In this document: positions 1 to 7,349 of the stretch, piece after piece
Layout of the letters: the number at the start of each line of letters is the position of its first letter
How positions within the stretch are numbered: the stretch's first letter is position 1
Virus record (IMG/VR): IMGVR_UViG_2778261167_000008
Location: 1-17,432 of that record
DNA: 17,432 nt
DNA from: a virus
Lineage: Duplodnaviria; Heunggongvirae; Uroviricota; Caudoviricetes
Strand: one strand, 5' to 3'
Program-made: the position numbers and the translations under genes
Notes under the pieces: model-generated
The model's database searches: none
What the model was told of the DNA's origin: nothing
Seen by the model: the letters and a program-made list of their open reading frames with translations, nothing else

Positions 1-54
1 GCAGAGCAGGCAGAGCAGGCAGAGCAGGCAGAGCAGGCAGAGCAGGCAGAGCAG
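1..54 (+). repeat. Six perfect tandem copies of the 9-bp unit GCAGAGCAG, in frame, encoding (Ala-Glu-Gln)6
   Basis: Read directly from the sequence; a partial seventh unit (gcagac) follows. The array may continue upstream of the window. Confidence 0.95.
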
Positions 55-90
55 GCAGACACCTCCGCTAAATCGAAAAAGGCGAAATAA
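1..90 (+). CDS. 3' end of an upstream head gene (partial); C-terminus ...AEQAEQAEQAEQAEQAEQADTSAKSKKAK
   Basis: Frame 1 is open from the window edge to TAA at 88-90. Its position just upstream of the head-tail joining genes suggests a capsid or decoration protein, but the identity is not determinable from 29 codons. Confidence 0.55.
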   Translation, partial: AEQAEQAEQAEQAEQAEQADTSAKSKKAK

Positions 91-92
91 CC

Positions 93-473
93 ATGGCTGA
101 CCCAATCACAGCGGCAGACGTGCAGGCGTTCCTCGGTGAATTGGGTTACTCCATTCCGGGCGCTCTGCTGGAGCCGATCCTCTGTGTGGTGAACAAGATT
201 ATCCCGTGCCTCGATGGTGCTGGGTATGACGACTGCACCGCGAAGCTGATCCTGATGTACGCCGCCGCGCTTATGGCTACGTCGTCTGGGGCGCGCCGCA
301 TCAAATCACAGGGGGCTCCGTCCGGCGCGTCTCGTTCGTTTGATTACGGTGCTGACAGCATCACCTGGCTGCGCGAATCGCTGGCCCGGCTTGATACCAG
401 CGGCTGCACCGGTGAGCTGCCAATCAGCGCCGGTAACAGCGTCGGTCTGTTCATGGTGGTCGGGGGATGCTGA
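93..473 (+). CDS. Small head-tail joining or head completion protein (positional equivalent of lambda FI; function inferred from position only)
   Basis: 126-aa ORF with ATG at 93, 2 nt after the upstream stop; GC-rich codon usage matching the operon. No diagnostic motif recognised. Confidence 0.5.
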   Translation: MADPITAADVQAFLGELGYSIPGALLEPILCVVNKIIPCLDGAGYDDCTAKLILMYAAALMATSSGARRIKSQGAPSGASRSFDYGADSITWLRESLARLDTSGCTGELPISAGNSVGLFMVVGGC

Positions 474-642
474 TGACGTACAAATCAGTTAAGCACGGGC
501 TACCCCGCTCATTCGTCCGCGTCTGGGTGATAACCGACACTGGGCGGGAGACTACCGGCTACGTTAAATCGGACGGTGAGTGGTTCATCAACTGCCCGCG
601 CATCCGGGCGACTGGTGCGAAGGTGCTGCGCTGGAAGGAGGG

Positions 643-996
643 ATGATGTCATCGGTAGCGAACTGGAGCTATACAGCCACGGCGACAATCTGGCGCAAGC
701 TTGAAGGCAATGACGAATACGGCGACCCGCTGGGCTATGCCGAACCTGAGCAAATCCTCTGTGATTACGAGGGCGGGCTCAGCAAGAAGTTAGCCAGTCT
801 GGGCGCTGAAATCATCGTGAAGAACACCGTCTGGACGGAGTTCGCGCTGGCGGCCGCGGGTGATTATCTGCTGATTGGCGTTTCGACTGAGGCCGACCCA
901 GTTGTCGCTGGGGCCGACGAGGTGCGGCAGGTTATCCGTTACGCCGACACGTTCGAGCGACTGGCGGATGATTACGCCATCCTGACGGGAGTGTAG
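643..996 (+). CDS. Head-tail connector or adaptor protein (positional equivalent of lambda FII)
   Basis: The ORF track starts at 580, but a strong SD (AAGGAGGG, 635-642) precedes tandem ATGs at 643 and 646, giving about 117 aa. Function is inferred from position and size only. Confidence 0.5.
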   Translation: MMSSVANWSYTATATIWRKLEGNDEYGDPLGYAEPEQILCDYEGGLSKKLASLGAEIIVKNTVWTEFALAAAGDYLLIGVSTEADPVVAGADEVRQVIRYADTFERLADDYAILTGV

Positions 997-2561: not shown

Positions 2562-2611
2562 TCACTACAAAGGGCGGCGTGCTGCCCTTGATACTGGTTA
2601 TGGAGAACGAT

Positions 2612-3355
2612 ATGACACCTTTGAAAGAGATTGGCGAGTGCCTGATTGGTTCTGGAAGCCGTGAATACTTCTTCCGCCCATCATTCCGTAACATGACGCG
2701 GATCGGCGAACCAGAGCATATCGTTCGCACTTTCTATGCGCTGTTCAATGACGATGTGGCAAAGATGCTTGAGGCGGCGCGAGAAATTCACAGTGCGTTA
2801 CCAGAGCATCAGCGCATATTTTACGCCTACTATTTCGGTGACGTTTCGCTGCCGCGCTGGGCACTTGATGCAGCAGGTTCTGCTGCGTTTGTGCGTGAGG
2901 CATTGCTTTCAGCTATTAACGTCATTCAGTCATGCTGTGACGAGGACGTTTCTGAACTGACAGGCTGGCACGAGCCATCACGTACTGGAAGGCGTGCATT
3001 TGTATGGCGCCGCGGCTTGCTCCCGCCTGAGAACCTTATTCTGATAGCTCAGTCACTGATCATGCATGGCATCATCGGCAGGGCAAAGGTTCGTAAGTTG
3101 CAGAAGCACGAAAGCAAGGAAACGACTCCTGAGTTTCATGCGACTGAATACATCATGGCAGCCCGCAATCACTTCGGTATCAGCAAGGAAGAGGCTATGG
3201 AACTCACTATGACCGAATTTGCGATGATGCTTAACGCCAAATACCCTGATCAGAAAGGCTTCACCAGGGAAGAGTACGACGCTGTTATGGACGATGACGA
3301 TCGCCGCTGGCAGGAAATGATTGAGCGCGAAAAATCAGCAAAGAAAGCCGCCTGA
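2612..3355 (+). CDS. Tail assembly chaperone (G/GT-like), apparently one continuous ORF
   Basis: Position between the major tail and tape measure genes; acidic C-terminus. SD GGAG at 2602-2605 supports ATG 2612 (the track's GTG 2579 and ATG 2600 are in-frame alternatives). No second overlapping frame was seen. Confidence 0.5.
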   Translation: MTPLKEIGECLIGSGSREYFFRPSFRNMTRIGEPEHIVRTFYALFNDDVAKMLEAAREIHSALPEHQRIFYAYYFGDVSLPRWALDAAGSAAFVREALLSAINVIQSCCDEDVSELTGWHEPSRTGRRAFVWRRGLLPPENLILIAQSLIMHGIIGRAKVRKLQKHESKETTPEFHATEYIMAARNHFGISKEEAMELTMTEFAMMLNAKYPDQKGFTREEYDAVMDDDDRRWQEMIEREKSAKKAA

Positions 3356-3427
3356 GTTAATAATGGATGTACCGTAATCGCCTGACCGGGCTTAATATGG
3401 CTCAACAATAAAACTCAGGTGATAAGG

Positions 3428-3802
3428 GTGAAGAAAATACTTTTGGCTTTGGTGATTCCACTGGTTCTGGCTGGCTGTAAGCCTGGCGAGGAAAAGGCCA
3501 TATCTCTGGCGAAATCTGAGGTTGCTGCAAATCTTAAAGACCCGGCCAGCGCACAGTTCCGGAACGTAAAAGTATCAAAGATGACTGATGCCGAAGATGG
3601 TCATGTCGTCGCTGTTGTCTGTGGAGAAATCAACGGTAAGAACGGTTTCGGTGCATATGCAGGGTTTCATCCATTCTTCGTTGAGCTGAACATGAAATCG
3701 ACAGGGATCTTCTCTAAAGGCGTCGATTATACGCTTGGAAAGCATTTCCTTAGCTCGAAAGATACGCCGCCGCCTCAGGCATACAAAGACCGATTCCAAT
3801 AG
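3428..3802 (+). CDS. Small secreted lipoprotein (cargo gene; function unknown)
   Basis: Starting at GTG 3428 gives MKKILLALVIPLVLAGC: a charged n-region, hydrophobic core and lipobox L-A-G-C, with K at +2 arguing against inner-membrane retention. SD AGGTGA at 3416-3421; GTG 3419 is an alternative start. GC is lower than the flanking tail genes and the gene has its own terminator. Confidence 0.7.
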   Translation: MKKILLALVIPLVLAGCKPGEEKAISLAKSEVAANLKDPASAQFRNVKVSKMTDAEDGHVVAVVCGEINGKNGFGAYAGFHPFFVELNMKSTGIFSKGVDYTLGKHFLSSKDTPPPQAYKDRFQ

Positions 3803-3856: not shown

Positions 3857-6193
3857 GTGATGTCAGAGAAAGCAGGCGAGATTTATTACGACATCGAGGC
3901 CGATGTTTCTGGCTTGCTGAAGGCGCAGGGGAAGGCCAATAAGTCACTCGACTCAATCGGAAACTCTGCCGCCAACGCAGCCAAAAAGATGGACGAGCTG
4001 CAGACCAATATCAATCGCGTGGCTGGTGCTATTGCAGCATCTCTCGTTGTTGACTGGGGCAAGGCGTTTCTGGTTGCCGCTGACAACATGAGTCAGCTTA
4101 ACGCGCGCATTGAACGCCTGACAGGCAGCGCTGCGGCTGCATCACAGACGATGCAGAGCCTGATGCGTATCAGTTCGTCGACTGGCGGTTCGCTGCAGGA
4201 CACCACAAAGCTGTGGGAAACCCTCAGCACTGCTCTCCGCGATACCGGCGCAACGAACGGCCAGATTATTCAGCTCACCGAGACGCTTCAGAAAATCGGG
4301 CGCATCGGCGGATCCTCATCCGAAGAAATGGCTAATGCTCTTCGTCAGTTCGGCCAGTCAATTTCATCCGGAACTGTCAGGGCGGAGGAATTCAACTCCA
4401 TCCTTGAGCAGATGCCGGAACTGGCGCGCCAGATCGCCGCCGGTATGGGAGTCAGCATCGGAGAGTTGCGCCAGCTCATGCTGGACGGAAAGTTGACGGC
4501 AGAAGATGCGCTCAACGCTATCCAGAAGCAGACCGGATCAGTCAACGCTGAGTTCGAAAAGCTACCACGTACGCTTTCTCAGGCCAATACAGCGCTGACA
4601 AACTCATTCCTGTCGATGATCGACTCTGTTAACCAGGCGACTGGTGCCAGTAGTGGTCTGGTGGCAATAATCGACTCTATGTCAGCAGCACTAGATCGCC
4701 TGGTAGGAAAGGCGGCGTCGGCAGATGCTCAGATATCAGATTTGAACAGCACAGCGGAAATGTTCACCAGGCGCGCGCGCACTTGGTCATGGCTTGGGCT
4801 TGATGGTTGGGAAGCACAAAACAAAGCGCTTGCCGGTCTAAGCAATAAGGCCGCCTTGCTGGTTGGCGATCTGGCTGCTGTTTCCAAAGCATCACAGACC
4901 GCGGCTAACACAAAGCCGATTGAGATTAAAACTACAGGTTCCGCTACTGGAAGCAAAGCGAAGGGCGGAAAGTCAGCAGCTCAGAAAGAAGCTGAGCAGT
5001 ACGCTAAAGCGCAGGAGACGGTTAACCAAAAACTGGATGAGCTGAGGCAAAAGGCCGAGTTGTCAGCGGGCAGTGTTGGTGAGTTATCGAGAGCTCAGGC
5101 CGTGCTTAATGCACAGCAGTCTCTCGGTAATGATGCGACACAGGAACAGGTCATTCTGGCTGGGCAATACGCGGCTAAAGCCTGGGATAACGCCAACGCA
5201 TTGCGCGCCCAGGCAAAGGCAGAAAAGGAACGTACTGACGCTGCCAATAAATTCAGCGCTATCCAGGGTAAAACCAGTAAAACTGCCGGACTGGATAGCC
5301 AGTATCAGAAAGACATCGCGGATATCCAACAATACGCCCAACTTTACCCGCAGAAGATCGGAGAGGCTGAGGCGGCGCGCGCTGCTATCGAACAGCAATA
5401 CCGTGATCAGCGTAACGCGGCAATGTGGGAAGAATGGGCGCAGCAGAACGCGGCCACACAGGCAGCGGCTGCGGCTTTCGATTCACTAGGTTCGGTTGCC
5501 AGTAACGCGCTGACAGGAATCATCACAGGTAGCATGTCTGCCAGCGACGCAATGCGCAGTATAGGCATGACGGTCCTGAACAGCGTTGTTAATTCGTTCG
5601 TCCAGATGGGTATCGAGTGGGTTAAGTCTGCAATTATGGGACAGGCGGCACAAACGGCTGCTATTGGCACGGTGACAGCAGTGCAGACGGCAGCAGTGGC
5701 AACACAGACTGCTACCAGCACAGCGGCGGCGGCAACGACTGCGGCAGCTTGGACCCCGGCGGCGATCCTTTCTTCAATAGCCTCGATGGGTACTGCGGCG
5801 GCGATCGGTCTCGGCGCGGTGGCTGGCGTTATTGGAGCTAATCTGCTCGGCAAGCGCAAGAATGGCGGCCCGGTGAGTGCAGGTGGGATGTATCAGGTCG
5901 GCGAAGGAGGCATGCCTGAAATTTACCAGGCCAGTACCGGTAAGCAGTACATGATACCGGGCGACAACGGCAAGGTGATCAGCAACAAGGATATGACAGC
6001 AGGGGGTAGTGGCGGGGTGGTTATCAACATCCAGAACTACACGTCATCGTCCGTCGATGCTCAGGCTGGTACAGATGCAAACGGCGGGCTTACCGTTGAT
6101 GTCATCGTTGCTGACCTGAACAACGGCGGCCCAATCAGTAGCGCTATTACCAGCAACATGAACGTTAAACGCACGCCAAGAGGGCAGGGCTGA
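3857..6193 (+). CDS. Tail tape measure protein
   Basis: 778-aa ORF with a helical, Ala/Gln-rich N-terminal two-thirds and a hydrophobic Ala/Gly/Thr-rich segment near the C-terminus (AAQTAAIGTVTAVQTAAVATQTATSTAAAATTAAAW...GLGAVAGVIGANLLG). SD GGAG at 3849-3852; ATG 3860 may be the true start. About 0.15 nm per residue implies a tail near 115 nm. Confidence 0.85.
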   Translation: MMSEKAGEIYYDIEADVSGLLKAQGKANKSLDSIGNSAANAAKKMDELQTNINRVAGAIAASLVVDWGKAFLVAADNMSQLNARIERLTGSAAAASQTMQSLMRISSSTGGSLQDTTKLWETLSTALRDTGATNGQIIQLTETLQKIGRIGGSSSEEMANALRQFGQSISSGTVRAEEFNSILEQMPELARQIAAGMGVSIGELRQLMLDGKLTAEDALNAIQKQTGSVNAEFEKLPRTLSQANTALTNSFLSMIDSVNQATGASSGLVAIIDSMSAALDRLVGKAASADAQISDLNSTAEMFTRRARTWSWLGLDGWEAQNKALAGLSNKAALLVGDLAAVSKASQTAANTKPIEIKTTGSATGSKAKGGKSAAQKEAEQYAKAQETVNQKLDELRQKAELSAGSVGELSRAQAVLNAQQSLGNDATQEQVILAGQYAAKAWDNANALRAQAKAEKERTDAANKFSAIQGKTSKTAGLDSQYQKDIADIQQYAQLYPQKIGEAEAARAAIEQQYRDQRNAAMWEEWAQQNAATQAAAAAFDSLGSVASNALTGIITGSMSASDAMRSIGMTVLNSVVNSFVQMGIEWVKSAIMGQAAQTAAIGTVTAVQTAAVATQTATSTAAAATTAAAWTPAAILSSIASMGTAAAIGLGAVAGVIGANLLGKRKNGGPVSAGGMYQVGEGGMPEIYQASTGKQYMIPGDNGKVISNKDMTAGGSGGVVINIQNYTSSSVDAQAGTDANGGLTVDVIVADLNNGGPISSAITSNMNVKRTPRGQG

Positions 6194-6809: not shown

Positions 6810-7349
6810 ATGAACTTTATTACTCCTCAATATCTTTCTGAGTGTTTTGTCTATAACAAAAATACAGGGGAGCTATTCTGGAAAGCTCGACCTATTCACC
6901 ATTTCAACAGCTTAAAAGGTCAGCAAACTTTCAATGGGCAGTTTGCCGGGAAAAAAGCTGGAAGAGCAAATAATCGCGGTTATTTCAGAATTGCTATTAG
7001 TGGCAAGGAGATTCTAAACCACAGAATAGTTATAGCCTTGGAGACAGGCGTGATGCCTACTGACGAAGTGGATCATATCAATGGGATCAGAACCGACAAT
7101 AGGTACGAAAATTTAAGAGTGGTCTCGCGGCAGACAAATGCCAAAAACATGAAATTAAATATCAATAATACCAGCGGGATATCTGGCGTATCTTGGAATA
7201 CAAGAAAATCAAAATGGAAATCAGTAATCTGGATGAATTGTGTTGAAAAGCATCTTGGGTACTTCGATTCCATTATTGACGCCTTCAATGCCAGGGTAAT
7301 AGCAGAGGTAAACATGGGTTACCATAAAAATCATGGAAGGATCCCCTGA
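6810..7349 (+). CDS. HNH homing-type endonuclease with AP2-like DNA-binding region
   Basis: 179-aa ORF, markedly AT-rich against GC-rich flanks, with SD GAGG 5 nt upstream. Contains HNH core EVDHINGIRTDNRYENLRVVSRQTNAKN and a downstream GISGVSWNTRKSKWKSVIW segment typical of phage HNH-AP2 endonucleases. Confidence 0.8.
   Translation: MNFITPQYLSECFVYNKNTGELFWKARPIHHFNSLKGQQTFNGQFAGKKAGRANNRGYFRIAISGKEILNHRIVIALETGVMPTDEVDHINGIRTDNRYENLRVVSRQTNAKNMKLNINNTSGISGVSWNTRKSKWKSVIWMNCVEKHLGYFDSIIDAFNARVIAEVNMGYHKNHGRIP

What the first reader, a model, noticed from the sequence alone, without database searches (positions are those of the whole stretch)
1..90. Perfect in-frame 9-bp tandem repeat encoding (AEQ)n at the C-terminus of a head gene
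Seen in sequence: six identical GCAGAGCAG units, plus a partial seventh, at the window edge, ending in a Lys-rich tail. Perfect trinucleotide-multiple repeats are prone to slipped-strand copy-number change without frameshift, so the C-terminal extension could vary in length between phage copies. The repeat may extend upstream.
Basis: seen in the sequence. Interest (0 to 1): 0.35.

Follow-up and report, generated by a model that had tools for sequence, protein, structure and literature searches.

The report
Length-variable AEQ repeat in small phage protein
The window opens inside a real, perfect 9-base repeat that encodes a stretchy acidic spacer in a small prophage protein of unknown function, and the number of repeat units differs from 1 to 17 among related prophages, which is an ordinary kind of coding length polymorphism.

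Summary
Window 1-59 holds 6.6 perfect GCAGAGCAG units. Frame 1 reads (AEQ)6-ADTSAKSKKAK and stops at 88-90, two bases before the next gene.

The gene is not the major capsid gene. In relatives it is a separate 58-163 aa ORF between the capsid gene and a DUF7370 gene. It matches phrog_2288, has no known function, and is named "hypothetical" in every record seen.

The predicted length variation is real. Related prophages carry 1-17 units, as AEQ or PEQ. Each array is almost pure at the DNA level. Some proteins with identical flanks differ only by one unit.

AlphaFold gives a confident N-terminal beta domain, followed by a disordered segment that includes the repeat. Other relatives have nothing, or a long helix, in the same place. 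All keep a (L/F)EVATP motif and a Lys-rich end. The repeat is therefore a length-tolerant spacer.

The window and three unrelated contigs all end inside the array, so 6.6 units is probably a lower bound caused by an assembly break.

Lambda gpFI and a virion protein of phage AchV4 occupy the same gene position. Homology to either was tested and not supported.

This is an ordinary coding minisatellite in an uncharacterised protein family, of low to moderate interest.

The parts
1..59 (+). Tandem array of six full GCAGAGCAG units (1-54) plus a partial seventh (55-59), cut by the window edge. It encodes (AEQ)6 followed by A.
   Evidence: TRF gives period 9, 6.6 copies, 100% matches, score 118. Sequence, translation.
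1..90 (+). 3' end (29 codons plus the TAA stop at 88-90) of a small ORF of the phrog_2288 family. Its 5' part lies outside the window.
   Evidence: Translation. Full-length homologues in L001 (110 aa), L002 (96 aa) and L003 (85 aa) have the same C-terminus. Their PHROG match is E 1e-21 to 1e-41.
55..87 (+). Conserved non-repeat C-terminal tail ADTSAKSKKAK with a Lys-rich end. Codons 70-87 also mark the point where homology to relatives with a different spacer begins, that is, a mosaic junction.
   Evidence: KK.K ends are nearly invariant in alignments A1 and A2. Many relatives align to the window only from base 71-79 onward.
93..473 (+). The next gene, a DUF7370 / phrog_786 protein of 126 aa. 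It served as the anchor for collecting related loci.
   Evidence: Pfam DUF7370 E 1.2e-41. phrog_786 E 5.5e-51. Loci.

Best explanation
The feature is an in-frame 9-bp coding minisatellite. It encodes a variable-length, acidic spacer, predicted to be disordered, in a small protein of 58-163 aa. That protein is encoded immediately after the major capsid gene of a siphovirus-type prophage of Enterobacteriaceae.

The protein has four parts:
- a folded N-terminal beta domain of about 47 residues;
- a conserved (L/F)EVATP(G/S) motif;
- the spacer;
- a conserved Lys-rich C-terminus.

Units are gained and lost by replication slippage or unequal recombination between identical units, with no change of frame. 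This keeps each array homogeneous while its length drifts. The mechanism is inferred from the pattern and was not observed directly.

The spacer tolerates changes of length and even of structure. Relatives have no spacer, AEQ units, PEQ units, or a helix of about 54 residues.

The window begins inside the array, most likely because a short-read assembly broke there, so 6.6 units is a lower bound.

The protein's function is unknown. My best guess, at about 0.35 and by inference only, is a low-copy head-associated accessory protein. In that picture the N-domain docks on the capsid or neck, and the spacer holds out the basic tip as a tether.
For: Array and reading frame.

Gene position and separate ORF: in L001, L002, L003, L004 and L005 the order is capsid gene, small ORF, DUF7370 gene. 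In L001 the capsid stop is followed by a GC hairpin, then GGGAGAGAG and the small ORF's own ATG.

Family: phrog_2288, E 1e-21 to 1e-41. DUF7302 is matched by 8 of 46 representatives, best E 4.4e-06. Every source name seen is 'hypothetical'.

Copy number: 1-14 among loci anchored on the DUF7370 gene. It is 2-17 among 13 IMG/VR loci that share the exact 51-nt right flank.

Array purity: 26 of 35 arrays are 100% pure. Units are lineage-specific: GCAGAGCAG, CCGGAGCAG, CCTGAGCAG and CCTGAACAG.

Proteins with identical flanks differ only in unit number.

Structure: AF2 of P0003 gives residues 1-47 as five strands at pLDDT about 89, and residues 53-89 below 50 with no secondary structure. AF2 of the coiled-coil variant P0127 gives the same N-domain, a disordered 52-63, and one helix at 67-120 with pLDDT 87-91.

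Minimal members of 58-71 aa have no spacer.

Contigs that end inside the array: the window, L011, L073 and L131.
Against: No reads or long-read data were available, so slippage within one population and the true copy number in the source are not shown.

Among the fetched DNA loci, no pair with at least 97% identical flanks differed in copy number. The evidence for change on an identical background is therefore at the protein level only.

The assembly-break reading is an inference. The window could simply have been cut there.

Nothing in the data shows that the protein is in the virion or binds the capsid. No significant structural or sequence relative of known function was found.

AF2 disorder for a low-complexity segment is weak evidence. 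(AEQ)n could still form a helix.
Confidence: 0.85

Rival explanations
1. The protein is a functional analogue of lambda gpFI, a DNA-packaging chaperone that is not part of the virion. A small capsid-binding domain would be tethered through a flexible acidic linker, here the AEQ array, to a second element that contacts the terminase-DNA complex. The repeat would set the tether length.
For: It has the same gene position as lambda FI, between the major capsid gene and the head-completion genes (compared). The size is similar, and both have a two-part build with an acidic flexible middle (lambda FI sequence; AF2 models). A review states that gpFI bridges the capsid and the terminase-DNA complex (PMC13595911). 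By eye, some distant members (P0381, P0387, P0405) end in helix-extended-helix-like segments.
Against: There is no Pfam PF14000 match at E up to 10. BLASTP finds no alignment at E up to 100. hhalign probabilities are 0.2-1.5%. Foldseek did not return 2LSM. The possibly related YqbF (2hjq) appears only at E 6.5, probability 0.06. The domain order is reversed relative to gpFI. Pfam finds no SAP/HeH domain in any of 46 representatives at E up to 0.01.
Confidence: 0.2
2. The protein is a structural virion component, either a minor head or neck decoration or a short fibre. It would be like the small protein encoded after the capsid gene of Achromobacter phage AchV4. The repeat or helix would form a projecting stalk.
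For: AchV4_0008 is 114 aa and lies immediately after the capsid gene, in a head module with a similar gene order in the decoration-to-head-closure part. It was detected in virions by LC-MS/MS with 24 peptides and 82% coverage (PMC7996906; gene map). It appears among the BFVD fold matches of the P0003 model (E 0.23, probability 0.89). There are weak PHROG matches to 'virion structural protein' and 'head-tail connector' families (E 1.4e-4 to 0.09). The long single helix of the variant forms suits an oligomeric coiled-coil stalk.
Against: The profile comparison with AchV4_0008 is not significant (hhalign probability 0.26%). The fold match is below significance. These prophages already encode a head-decoration protein upstream of the capsid gene. 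A hairpin between the capsid gene and this ORF in L001 suggests lower expression than the capsid protein, though this evidence is weak.
Confidence: 0.3
3. The repeat is an artefact of the contig or window edge, produced by assembly collapse or extension in low-complexity sequence, and is not a real genomic feature.
For: The array sits exactly at base 1. Three other contigs also end inside it.
Against: The same array, in frame and with the same flanks, lies internally in complete E. coli chromosomes (L001 with 12 units, L002 with 8) and in dozens of independent assemblies. The reading frame and the downstream tail are conserved at the protein level, even where the units use different codons.
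Confidence: 0.02
4. The array is a contingency locus that switches the gene on and off (phase variation).
For: It is a perfect short-unit tandem repeat inside a coding region. One database protein (P0361) reads the array in the QSR frame.
Against: The unit is 9 bp, so gain or loss of units never changes the frame. All 48 arrays examined keep the frame and the conserved tail. P0361 is a single case and needs an indel outside the repeat.
Confidence: 0.02

Closest known systems
In-frame coding minisatellites (VNTRs) in bacterial and phage proteins, and flexible Ala/Pro/Glu-rich inter-domain linkers such as those of 2-oxo-acid dehydrogenase E2 chains
   Same: It has perfect head-to-tail units with a length that is a multiple of three. 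Copy number is polymorphic among relatives and each array is homogeneous. The encoded peptide is a low-complexity acidic spacer between functional parts. The PEQ variant gives weak low-complexity matches to the E2 SucB and TraD linker regions.
   Different: The host protein is an uncharacterised small phage protein. The same slot is filled in relatives by a long helix or by nothing.
Lambda gpFI DNA-packaging chaperone (Pfam PF14000; PDB 2LSM)
   Same: The gene position, between the major capsid gene and the head-completion genes. The small size. A folded small domain plus a flexible acidic middle.
   Different: There is no detectable sequence, profile or fold similarity. The domain order is reversed. 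The end is Lys-rich rather than a helical N-domain.
AchV4_0008, a virion structural protein of Achromobacter phage vB_AchrS_AchV4
   Same: It is encoded immediately after the capsid gene in a head module with a similar gene order. It is about 115 aa, with an N-terminal small domain followed by a linker and a helical tail. It shows a weak fold resemblance.
   Different: Sequence-profile similarity is not significant. It has no tandem repeat. Its C-terminus is not Lys-rich.
phrog_2288 / Pfam DUF7302
   Same: Full-length relatives match phrog_2288 strongly. Several family representatives match DUF7302.
   Different: Both are families of unknown function, so membership names the protein without explaining it. 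The window itself holds only the last 29 codons, which lie outside the conserved N-domain.

Membership tests
In-frame coding tandem repeat with slippage-type length polymorphism | Head-to-tail identical units | tested here: met
   6.6 units, 100% matches, no indels.
In-frame coding tandem repeat with slippage-type length polymorphism | The unit length is a multiple of 3 and the ORF is kept through the array | tested here: met
   The 9-bp unit reads AEQ and the frame runs to the TAA at 88-90. The frame and tail are kept in all relatives.
In-frame coding tandem repeat with slippage-type length polymorphism | Copy number differs among relatives, including on otherwise identical backgrounds | tested here: met
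   1-17 units. Protein sets with identical flanks differ by one unit. No DNA locus pair with at least 97% identical flanks differed.
In-frame coding tandem repeat with slippage-type length polymorphism | Length heterogeneity within one population, or a measured slippage rate | not testable with these tools
   No reads or passage data were available.
phrog_2288 (small phage protein of unknown function) | HMM match of the protein | tested here: inconclusive
   Full-length homologues that share the window's C-terminus match at E 1e-21 to 1e-41. The window holds only 29 C-terminal codons, outside the conserved domain, so its own N-domain type is unknown.
phrog_2288 (small phage protein of unknown function) | Position between the major capsid gene and the DUF7370 gene | tested here: met
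   The downstream neighbour is in the window. The upstream neighbour is seen in relatives.
Lambda gpFI / Packaging_FI (PF14000) | Sequence or profile match to PF14000 or to gpFI | tested here: not met
   There is no Pfam hit. BLASTP finds nothing. hhalign probability is at most 1.5%.
Lambda gpFI / Packaging_FI (PF14000) | Fold of the head-binding domain (PDB 2LSM) | tested here: inconclusive
   2LSM is not among the Foldseek matches. Nothing reaches E 0.001. Foldseek is weak on domains of about 45 residues.
Lambda gpFI / Packaging_FI (PF14000) | Stimulates DNA packaging and is absent from virions | not testable with these tools
   This needs genetics and biochemistry.
   In relatives the capsid ORF (DUF6260, E 3.8e-109) ends 32 nt before the small ORF's own start.
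Phase-variable contingency locus | Unit gain or loss shifts the reading frame | tested here: not met
   The unit is 9 bp, and all arrays are in frame.

The most novel reading that the evidence does not exclude
The family could be an undescribed class of modular head-associated tether proteins. A docking domain and a basic tip would be separated by a spacer that evolves very fast, through three interchangeable solutions: an AEQ minisatellite, a PEQ minisatellite, or a coiled coil that itself expands in 21-residue duplications. Spacer length would then be under diversifying selection, for example to match capsid or terminase variants after modular recombination, or to alter virion surface properties. 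The 9-bp array would act as a hypermutable length dial.
Probability: 0.1. Interest if true: 0.5.

Novelty: new member of a known kind. Interest (0 to 1): 0.27.

Why it matters
Practically, the array breaks short-read assemblies of these prophages. Four contigs end inside it, so copy numbers taken from draft genomes are unreliable. The locus could serve as a simple length marker for typing related Enterobacter, Klebsiella and E. coli prophages.

Biologically, it points to a small, widespread and unnamed protein encoded next to the capsid gene. Its middle part is free to vary in length and structure, while its two ends are conserved. That makes it a tractable candidate for a tether or accessory role in head assembly or packaging. 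None of this is surprising to a phage specialist.

Tried and rejected
- **Known families.** Pfam, NCBIfam and PDB sequence or profile searches of full-length relatives found no informative family. There were only coiled-coil or low-complexity noise and DUF7302.
- **Fold searches.** Foldseek of both AF2 models against the PDB and BFVD gave nothing at E 0.001 or better with a known function. Matches resembling ribosomal protein L9 and the GINS B-domain are architectural only.
- **gpFI homology.** An apparent by-eye similarity to the C-domain of lambda gpFI was tested and rejected. BLASTP found nothing and hhalign probability was at most 1.5%.
- **AchV4_0008 homology.** Tested and not supported.
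- **Frameshift fusion to the capsid protein.** I considered a capsid-to-small-ORF fusion by programmed frameshift, because the small ORF's frame stays open upstream of its ATG. I rejected it because the open stretch is a GC hairpin followed by the ORF's own ribosome-binding site, with no slippery heptamer. The consensus terminator scan did not list that hairpin.
- **DNA-level structure of the array.** Folding of window 1-90 as single-stranded DNA is weaker than most shuffles (z +1.77).
- **Close DNA pairs.** A search among fetched loci for pairs with near-identical flanks but different copy numbers found none.
- **Large repeated proteins.** Two hits in the exhaustive search, P0374 and P0404, are unrelated repeats.
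- **Literature.** Searches for DUF7370, YqbF and related terms gave nothing relevant. The Popovic 2012 gpFI paper is not held.

Full report
**1. Observation**

Window 1-59 consists of 6.6 perfect head-to-tail copies of GCAGAGCAG, with 100% matches, no indels and TRF score 118. Frame 1 reads AEQ six times, then ADTSAKSKKAK, and stops at TAA 88-90. The next gene starts at ATG 93. The description is accurate. The array touches base 1, so its full length in the source cannot be read.

**2. Which gene it is**

The window is the neck and tail module of a siphovirus-type prophage:
- a DUF7370 gene at 93-473;
- a tail terminator at 1364-1747;
- an Ig-domain major tail protein at 1806-2561;
- a DUF6246 gene at 2579-3355;
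- the tape measure gene at 3857-6193;
- a tailspike at 10720-12756;
- cargo genes after that.

Relatives that extend upstream include E. coli 30EVA1 and FDAARGOS_1250 and Klebsiella phages 2 LV-2017, ST101-KPC2phi6.1 and KO-TP1. They show the order portal, Mu-F-like protein, DUF2213 protein, decoration protein, major capsid protein (DUF6260), a small ORF, then DUF7370. The repeat lies in that small ORF, not in the capsid gene. In L001 the capsid stop is followed by a GC hairpin with a UUCG loop, then GGGAGAGAG and the ORF's own ATG.

The full-length proteins are 85-110 aa and end exactly like the window's fragment. They match phrog_2288, a family of unknown function, at E 1e-21 to 1e-41. They have no Pfam, NCBIfam or PDB relative of known function. 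Every database name seen is "hypothetical protein".

**3. Copy number in relatives**

I anchored on the DUF7370 protein and fetched 35 loci from GTDB species-representative genomes and 80 IMG/VR loci. In the 38 loci where the slot holds AEQ-type or PEQ-type units, the count ranges from 1 to 14. At the DNA level, 26 of 35 arrays with at least two units are 100% pure. The rest carry a single variant unit. The units are lineage-specific: GCAGAGCAG for AEQ, and CCGGAGCAG, CCTGAGCAG or CCTGAACAG for PEQ. This pattern has two implications. Homogenisation within each array is the signature of slippage or unequal exchange. The use of different codons for the same peptide unit suggests constraint on the peptide itself.

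A scan of IMG/VR for the window's exact 51-nt right flank found 13 loci with 2, 4, 5, 6, 6, 6, 6 (at a contig edge), 7, 7, 7, 8, 10 and 17 units.

Among cluster representatives at 90% identity, several proteins are identical outside the array and differ only in unit number. P0001 has 3 units and P0005 has 2. On one background there are AEP3AEQ3, AEP2AEQ3 and AEP3AEQ2 forms, as expected for the loss of single units.

Among the fetched DNA loci, no pair with at least 97% identical flanks differed in number. The evidence for recent change is therefore at the protein level only.

**4. The window edge**

L011 (Enterobacter soli), L073 and L131 are unrelated contigs, and all three end inside this array, as the window does. 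A contig end is very unlikely to fall by chance in the same stretch of 150 nt or less in four assemblies. The likeliest reason is that short-read assembly breaks there. The window's 6.6 units are then a lower bound. This is an inference.

**5. What the repeat encodes**

AlphaFold2 of P0003 (89 aa, 43-sequence alignment) gives a five-strand beta domain for residues 1-47 at pLDDT about 89. From residue 53 to the end there is no secondary structure and pLDDT is below 50. That stretch covers LEVATPG, the AEQ units and the Lys tail.

Other relatives are 121-163 aa and carry no AEQ units in the same slot. AlphaFold2 of P0127 gives the same kind of N-domain, a disordered 52-63, and one long helix at 67-120 with pLDDT 87-91. 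That helix also varies by tandem duplication. P0121 has three copies of a 21-residue unit.

An exhaustive HMMER search of 1.84 billion representative proteins found only 49 matches at E 0.001 or better. Many are minimal forms of 58-71 aa with no spacer at all. Two of the 49 are unrelated repeat proteins.

Across all forms, two things are kept: the (L/F)EVATP motif and a basic end of the KK.K type. The AEQ array is therefore one of several interchangeable fillers of a length-tolerant spacer between two conserved ends. Because PEQ can replace AEQ, an extended flexible segment is more likely than an obligatory helix.

**6. Function of the protein**

The function is not established. I examined two leads.

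- **Lambda gpFI.** It occupies the same gene position and has a small folded domain plus an acidic flexible middle. It bridges the capsid and the terminase-DNA complex (PMC13595911). An apparent by-eye similarity did not survive testing. There is no PF14000 hit, no BLASTP alignment, and hhalign probability is at most 1.5%. 2LSM is not among the Foldseek matches.
- **AchV4_0008.** It is encoded immediately after the capsid gene of Achromobacter phage AchV4 and was found in virions by LC-MS/MS with 82% coverage (PMC7996906). It appears as a weak fold match (E 0.23), but the profile comparison is not significant.

I therefore file the protein only as a member of phrog_2288, related to DUF7302. 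I guess a head-associated accessory or tether role at about 0.35, a structural decoration at about 0.3 and a gpFI-like chaperone at about 0.2. These readings overlap.

**7. Mosaicism**

The same array plus tail is joined to at least two different N-domain types among loci with the identical right flank. Many relatives with helical spacers align to the window only from base 71-79, inside the Lys-tail codons. The 3' end of this gene is therefore a recombination boundary between head and neck/tail modules.

**8. Verdict**

The repeat is real and in frame, and its copy number varies among relatives as predicted. It is an ordinary coding minisatellite that forms a spacer in an uncharacterised small phage protein. 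It cannot act as an on/off switch, because the unit is 9 bp. It is a new member of a known kind, of low to moderate interest.

Noticed in passing
window 1 (edge); L011 2-64; L073 7-42; L131 6-59: Four independent contigs, including the window, terminate inside this 9-bp array. This suggests that it routinely breaks short-read assemblies and that copy numbers from draft genomes are unreliable.
   Followed up: partly
window 70-90; relatives: Homology between the window and many relatives that carry a different spacer begins at base 71-79, inside the KSKKAK codons. The same AEQ array plus tail is joined to two different N-domain types. This marks a mosaic recombination junction between head and neck/tail modules.
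   Followed up: partly
P0121 (163 aa), P0126 (142 aa) versus 121-aa relatives; alignment A1: The helical-spacer variants of the same protein also change length by tandem duplication. P0121 has three copies of the 21-residue unit ADALEQNQKLIADGEAKDKAH, which is three heptads.
   Followed up: partly
L001 5724-5750: Directly after the major capsid stop codon there is a 7-bp GC-rich hairpin with a UUCG loop, followed by a U-rich run. After that come the ribosome-binding site and the ATG of the small ORF. It could be an attenuating terminator or an RNA-stabilising element. The consensus terminator scan did not list it, and its folding z-score is unremarkable.
   Followed up: partly
window 467-646: A 59-aa ORF (phrog_1261) is annotated in several public records of relatives as '50S ribosomal protein L13'. 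This looks like a propagated misannotation of a small neck-module phage protein.
   Followed up: no
window 6810-7349: An HNH endonuclease ORF (HNH_3, E 1.1e-13) sits among the tail-tip genes, between a phrog_384 virion protein gene and the next tail gene. It may be a mobile insertion.
   Followed up: no
window 12769-13908 (+) and 14689-15852 (-): Two Acyl_transf_3 genes lie downstream of the tailspike gene (10720-12756, Tail_spike_N). They are probably surface-polysaccharide acetyltransferase cargo for lysogenic conversion. Between them, at 14111-14383, is a truncated tail-fibre-assembly gene that covers only Caudo_TAP profile positions 50-131.
   Followed up: no
window 16497-17156: A calcineurin-like metallophosphoesterase gene (Metallophos, E 1.7e-15) lies beyond the tail and cargo region.
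   Followed up: no
window 15829-15886: AT-rich tandem repeats (period 12 and 23, TTTATTATTCATACTAAAATGAA x2) overlap the 5' end of the minus-strand acyltransferase gene and extend just upstream of its start.
   Followed up: no
P0361 (84 aa): One database protein of the family switches after the N-domain into the alternative QSR reading frame of the array and runs into the next gene. It is a frameshifted copy or a sequencing error.
   Followed up: no
window 2579-3355 and 3419-3802: A DUF6246 gene is followed by a phrog_2320 ORF just before the tape measure gene. This is the usual place for a tail-assembly-chaperone pair. I did not check whether a programmed frameshift links them.
   Followed up: no
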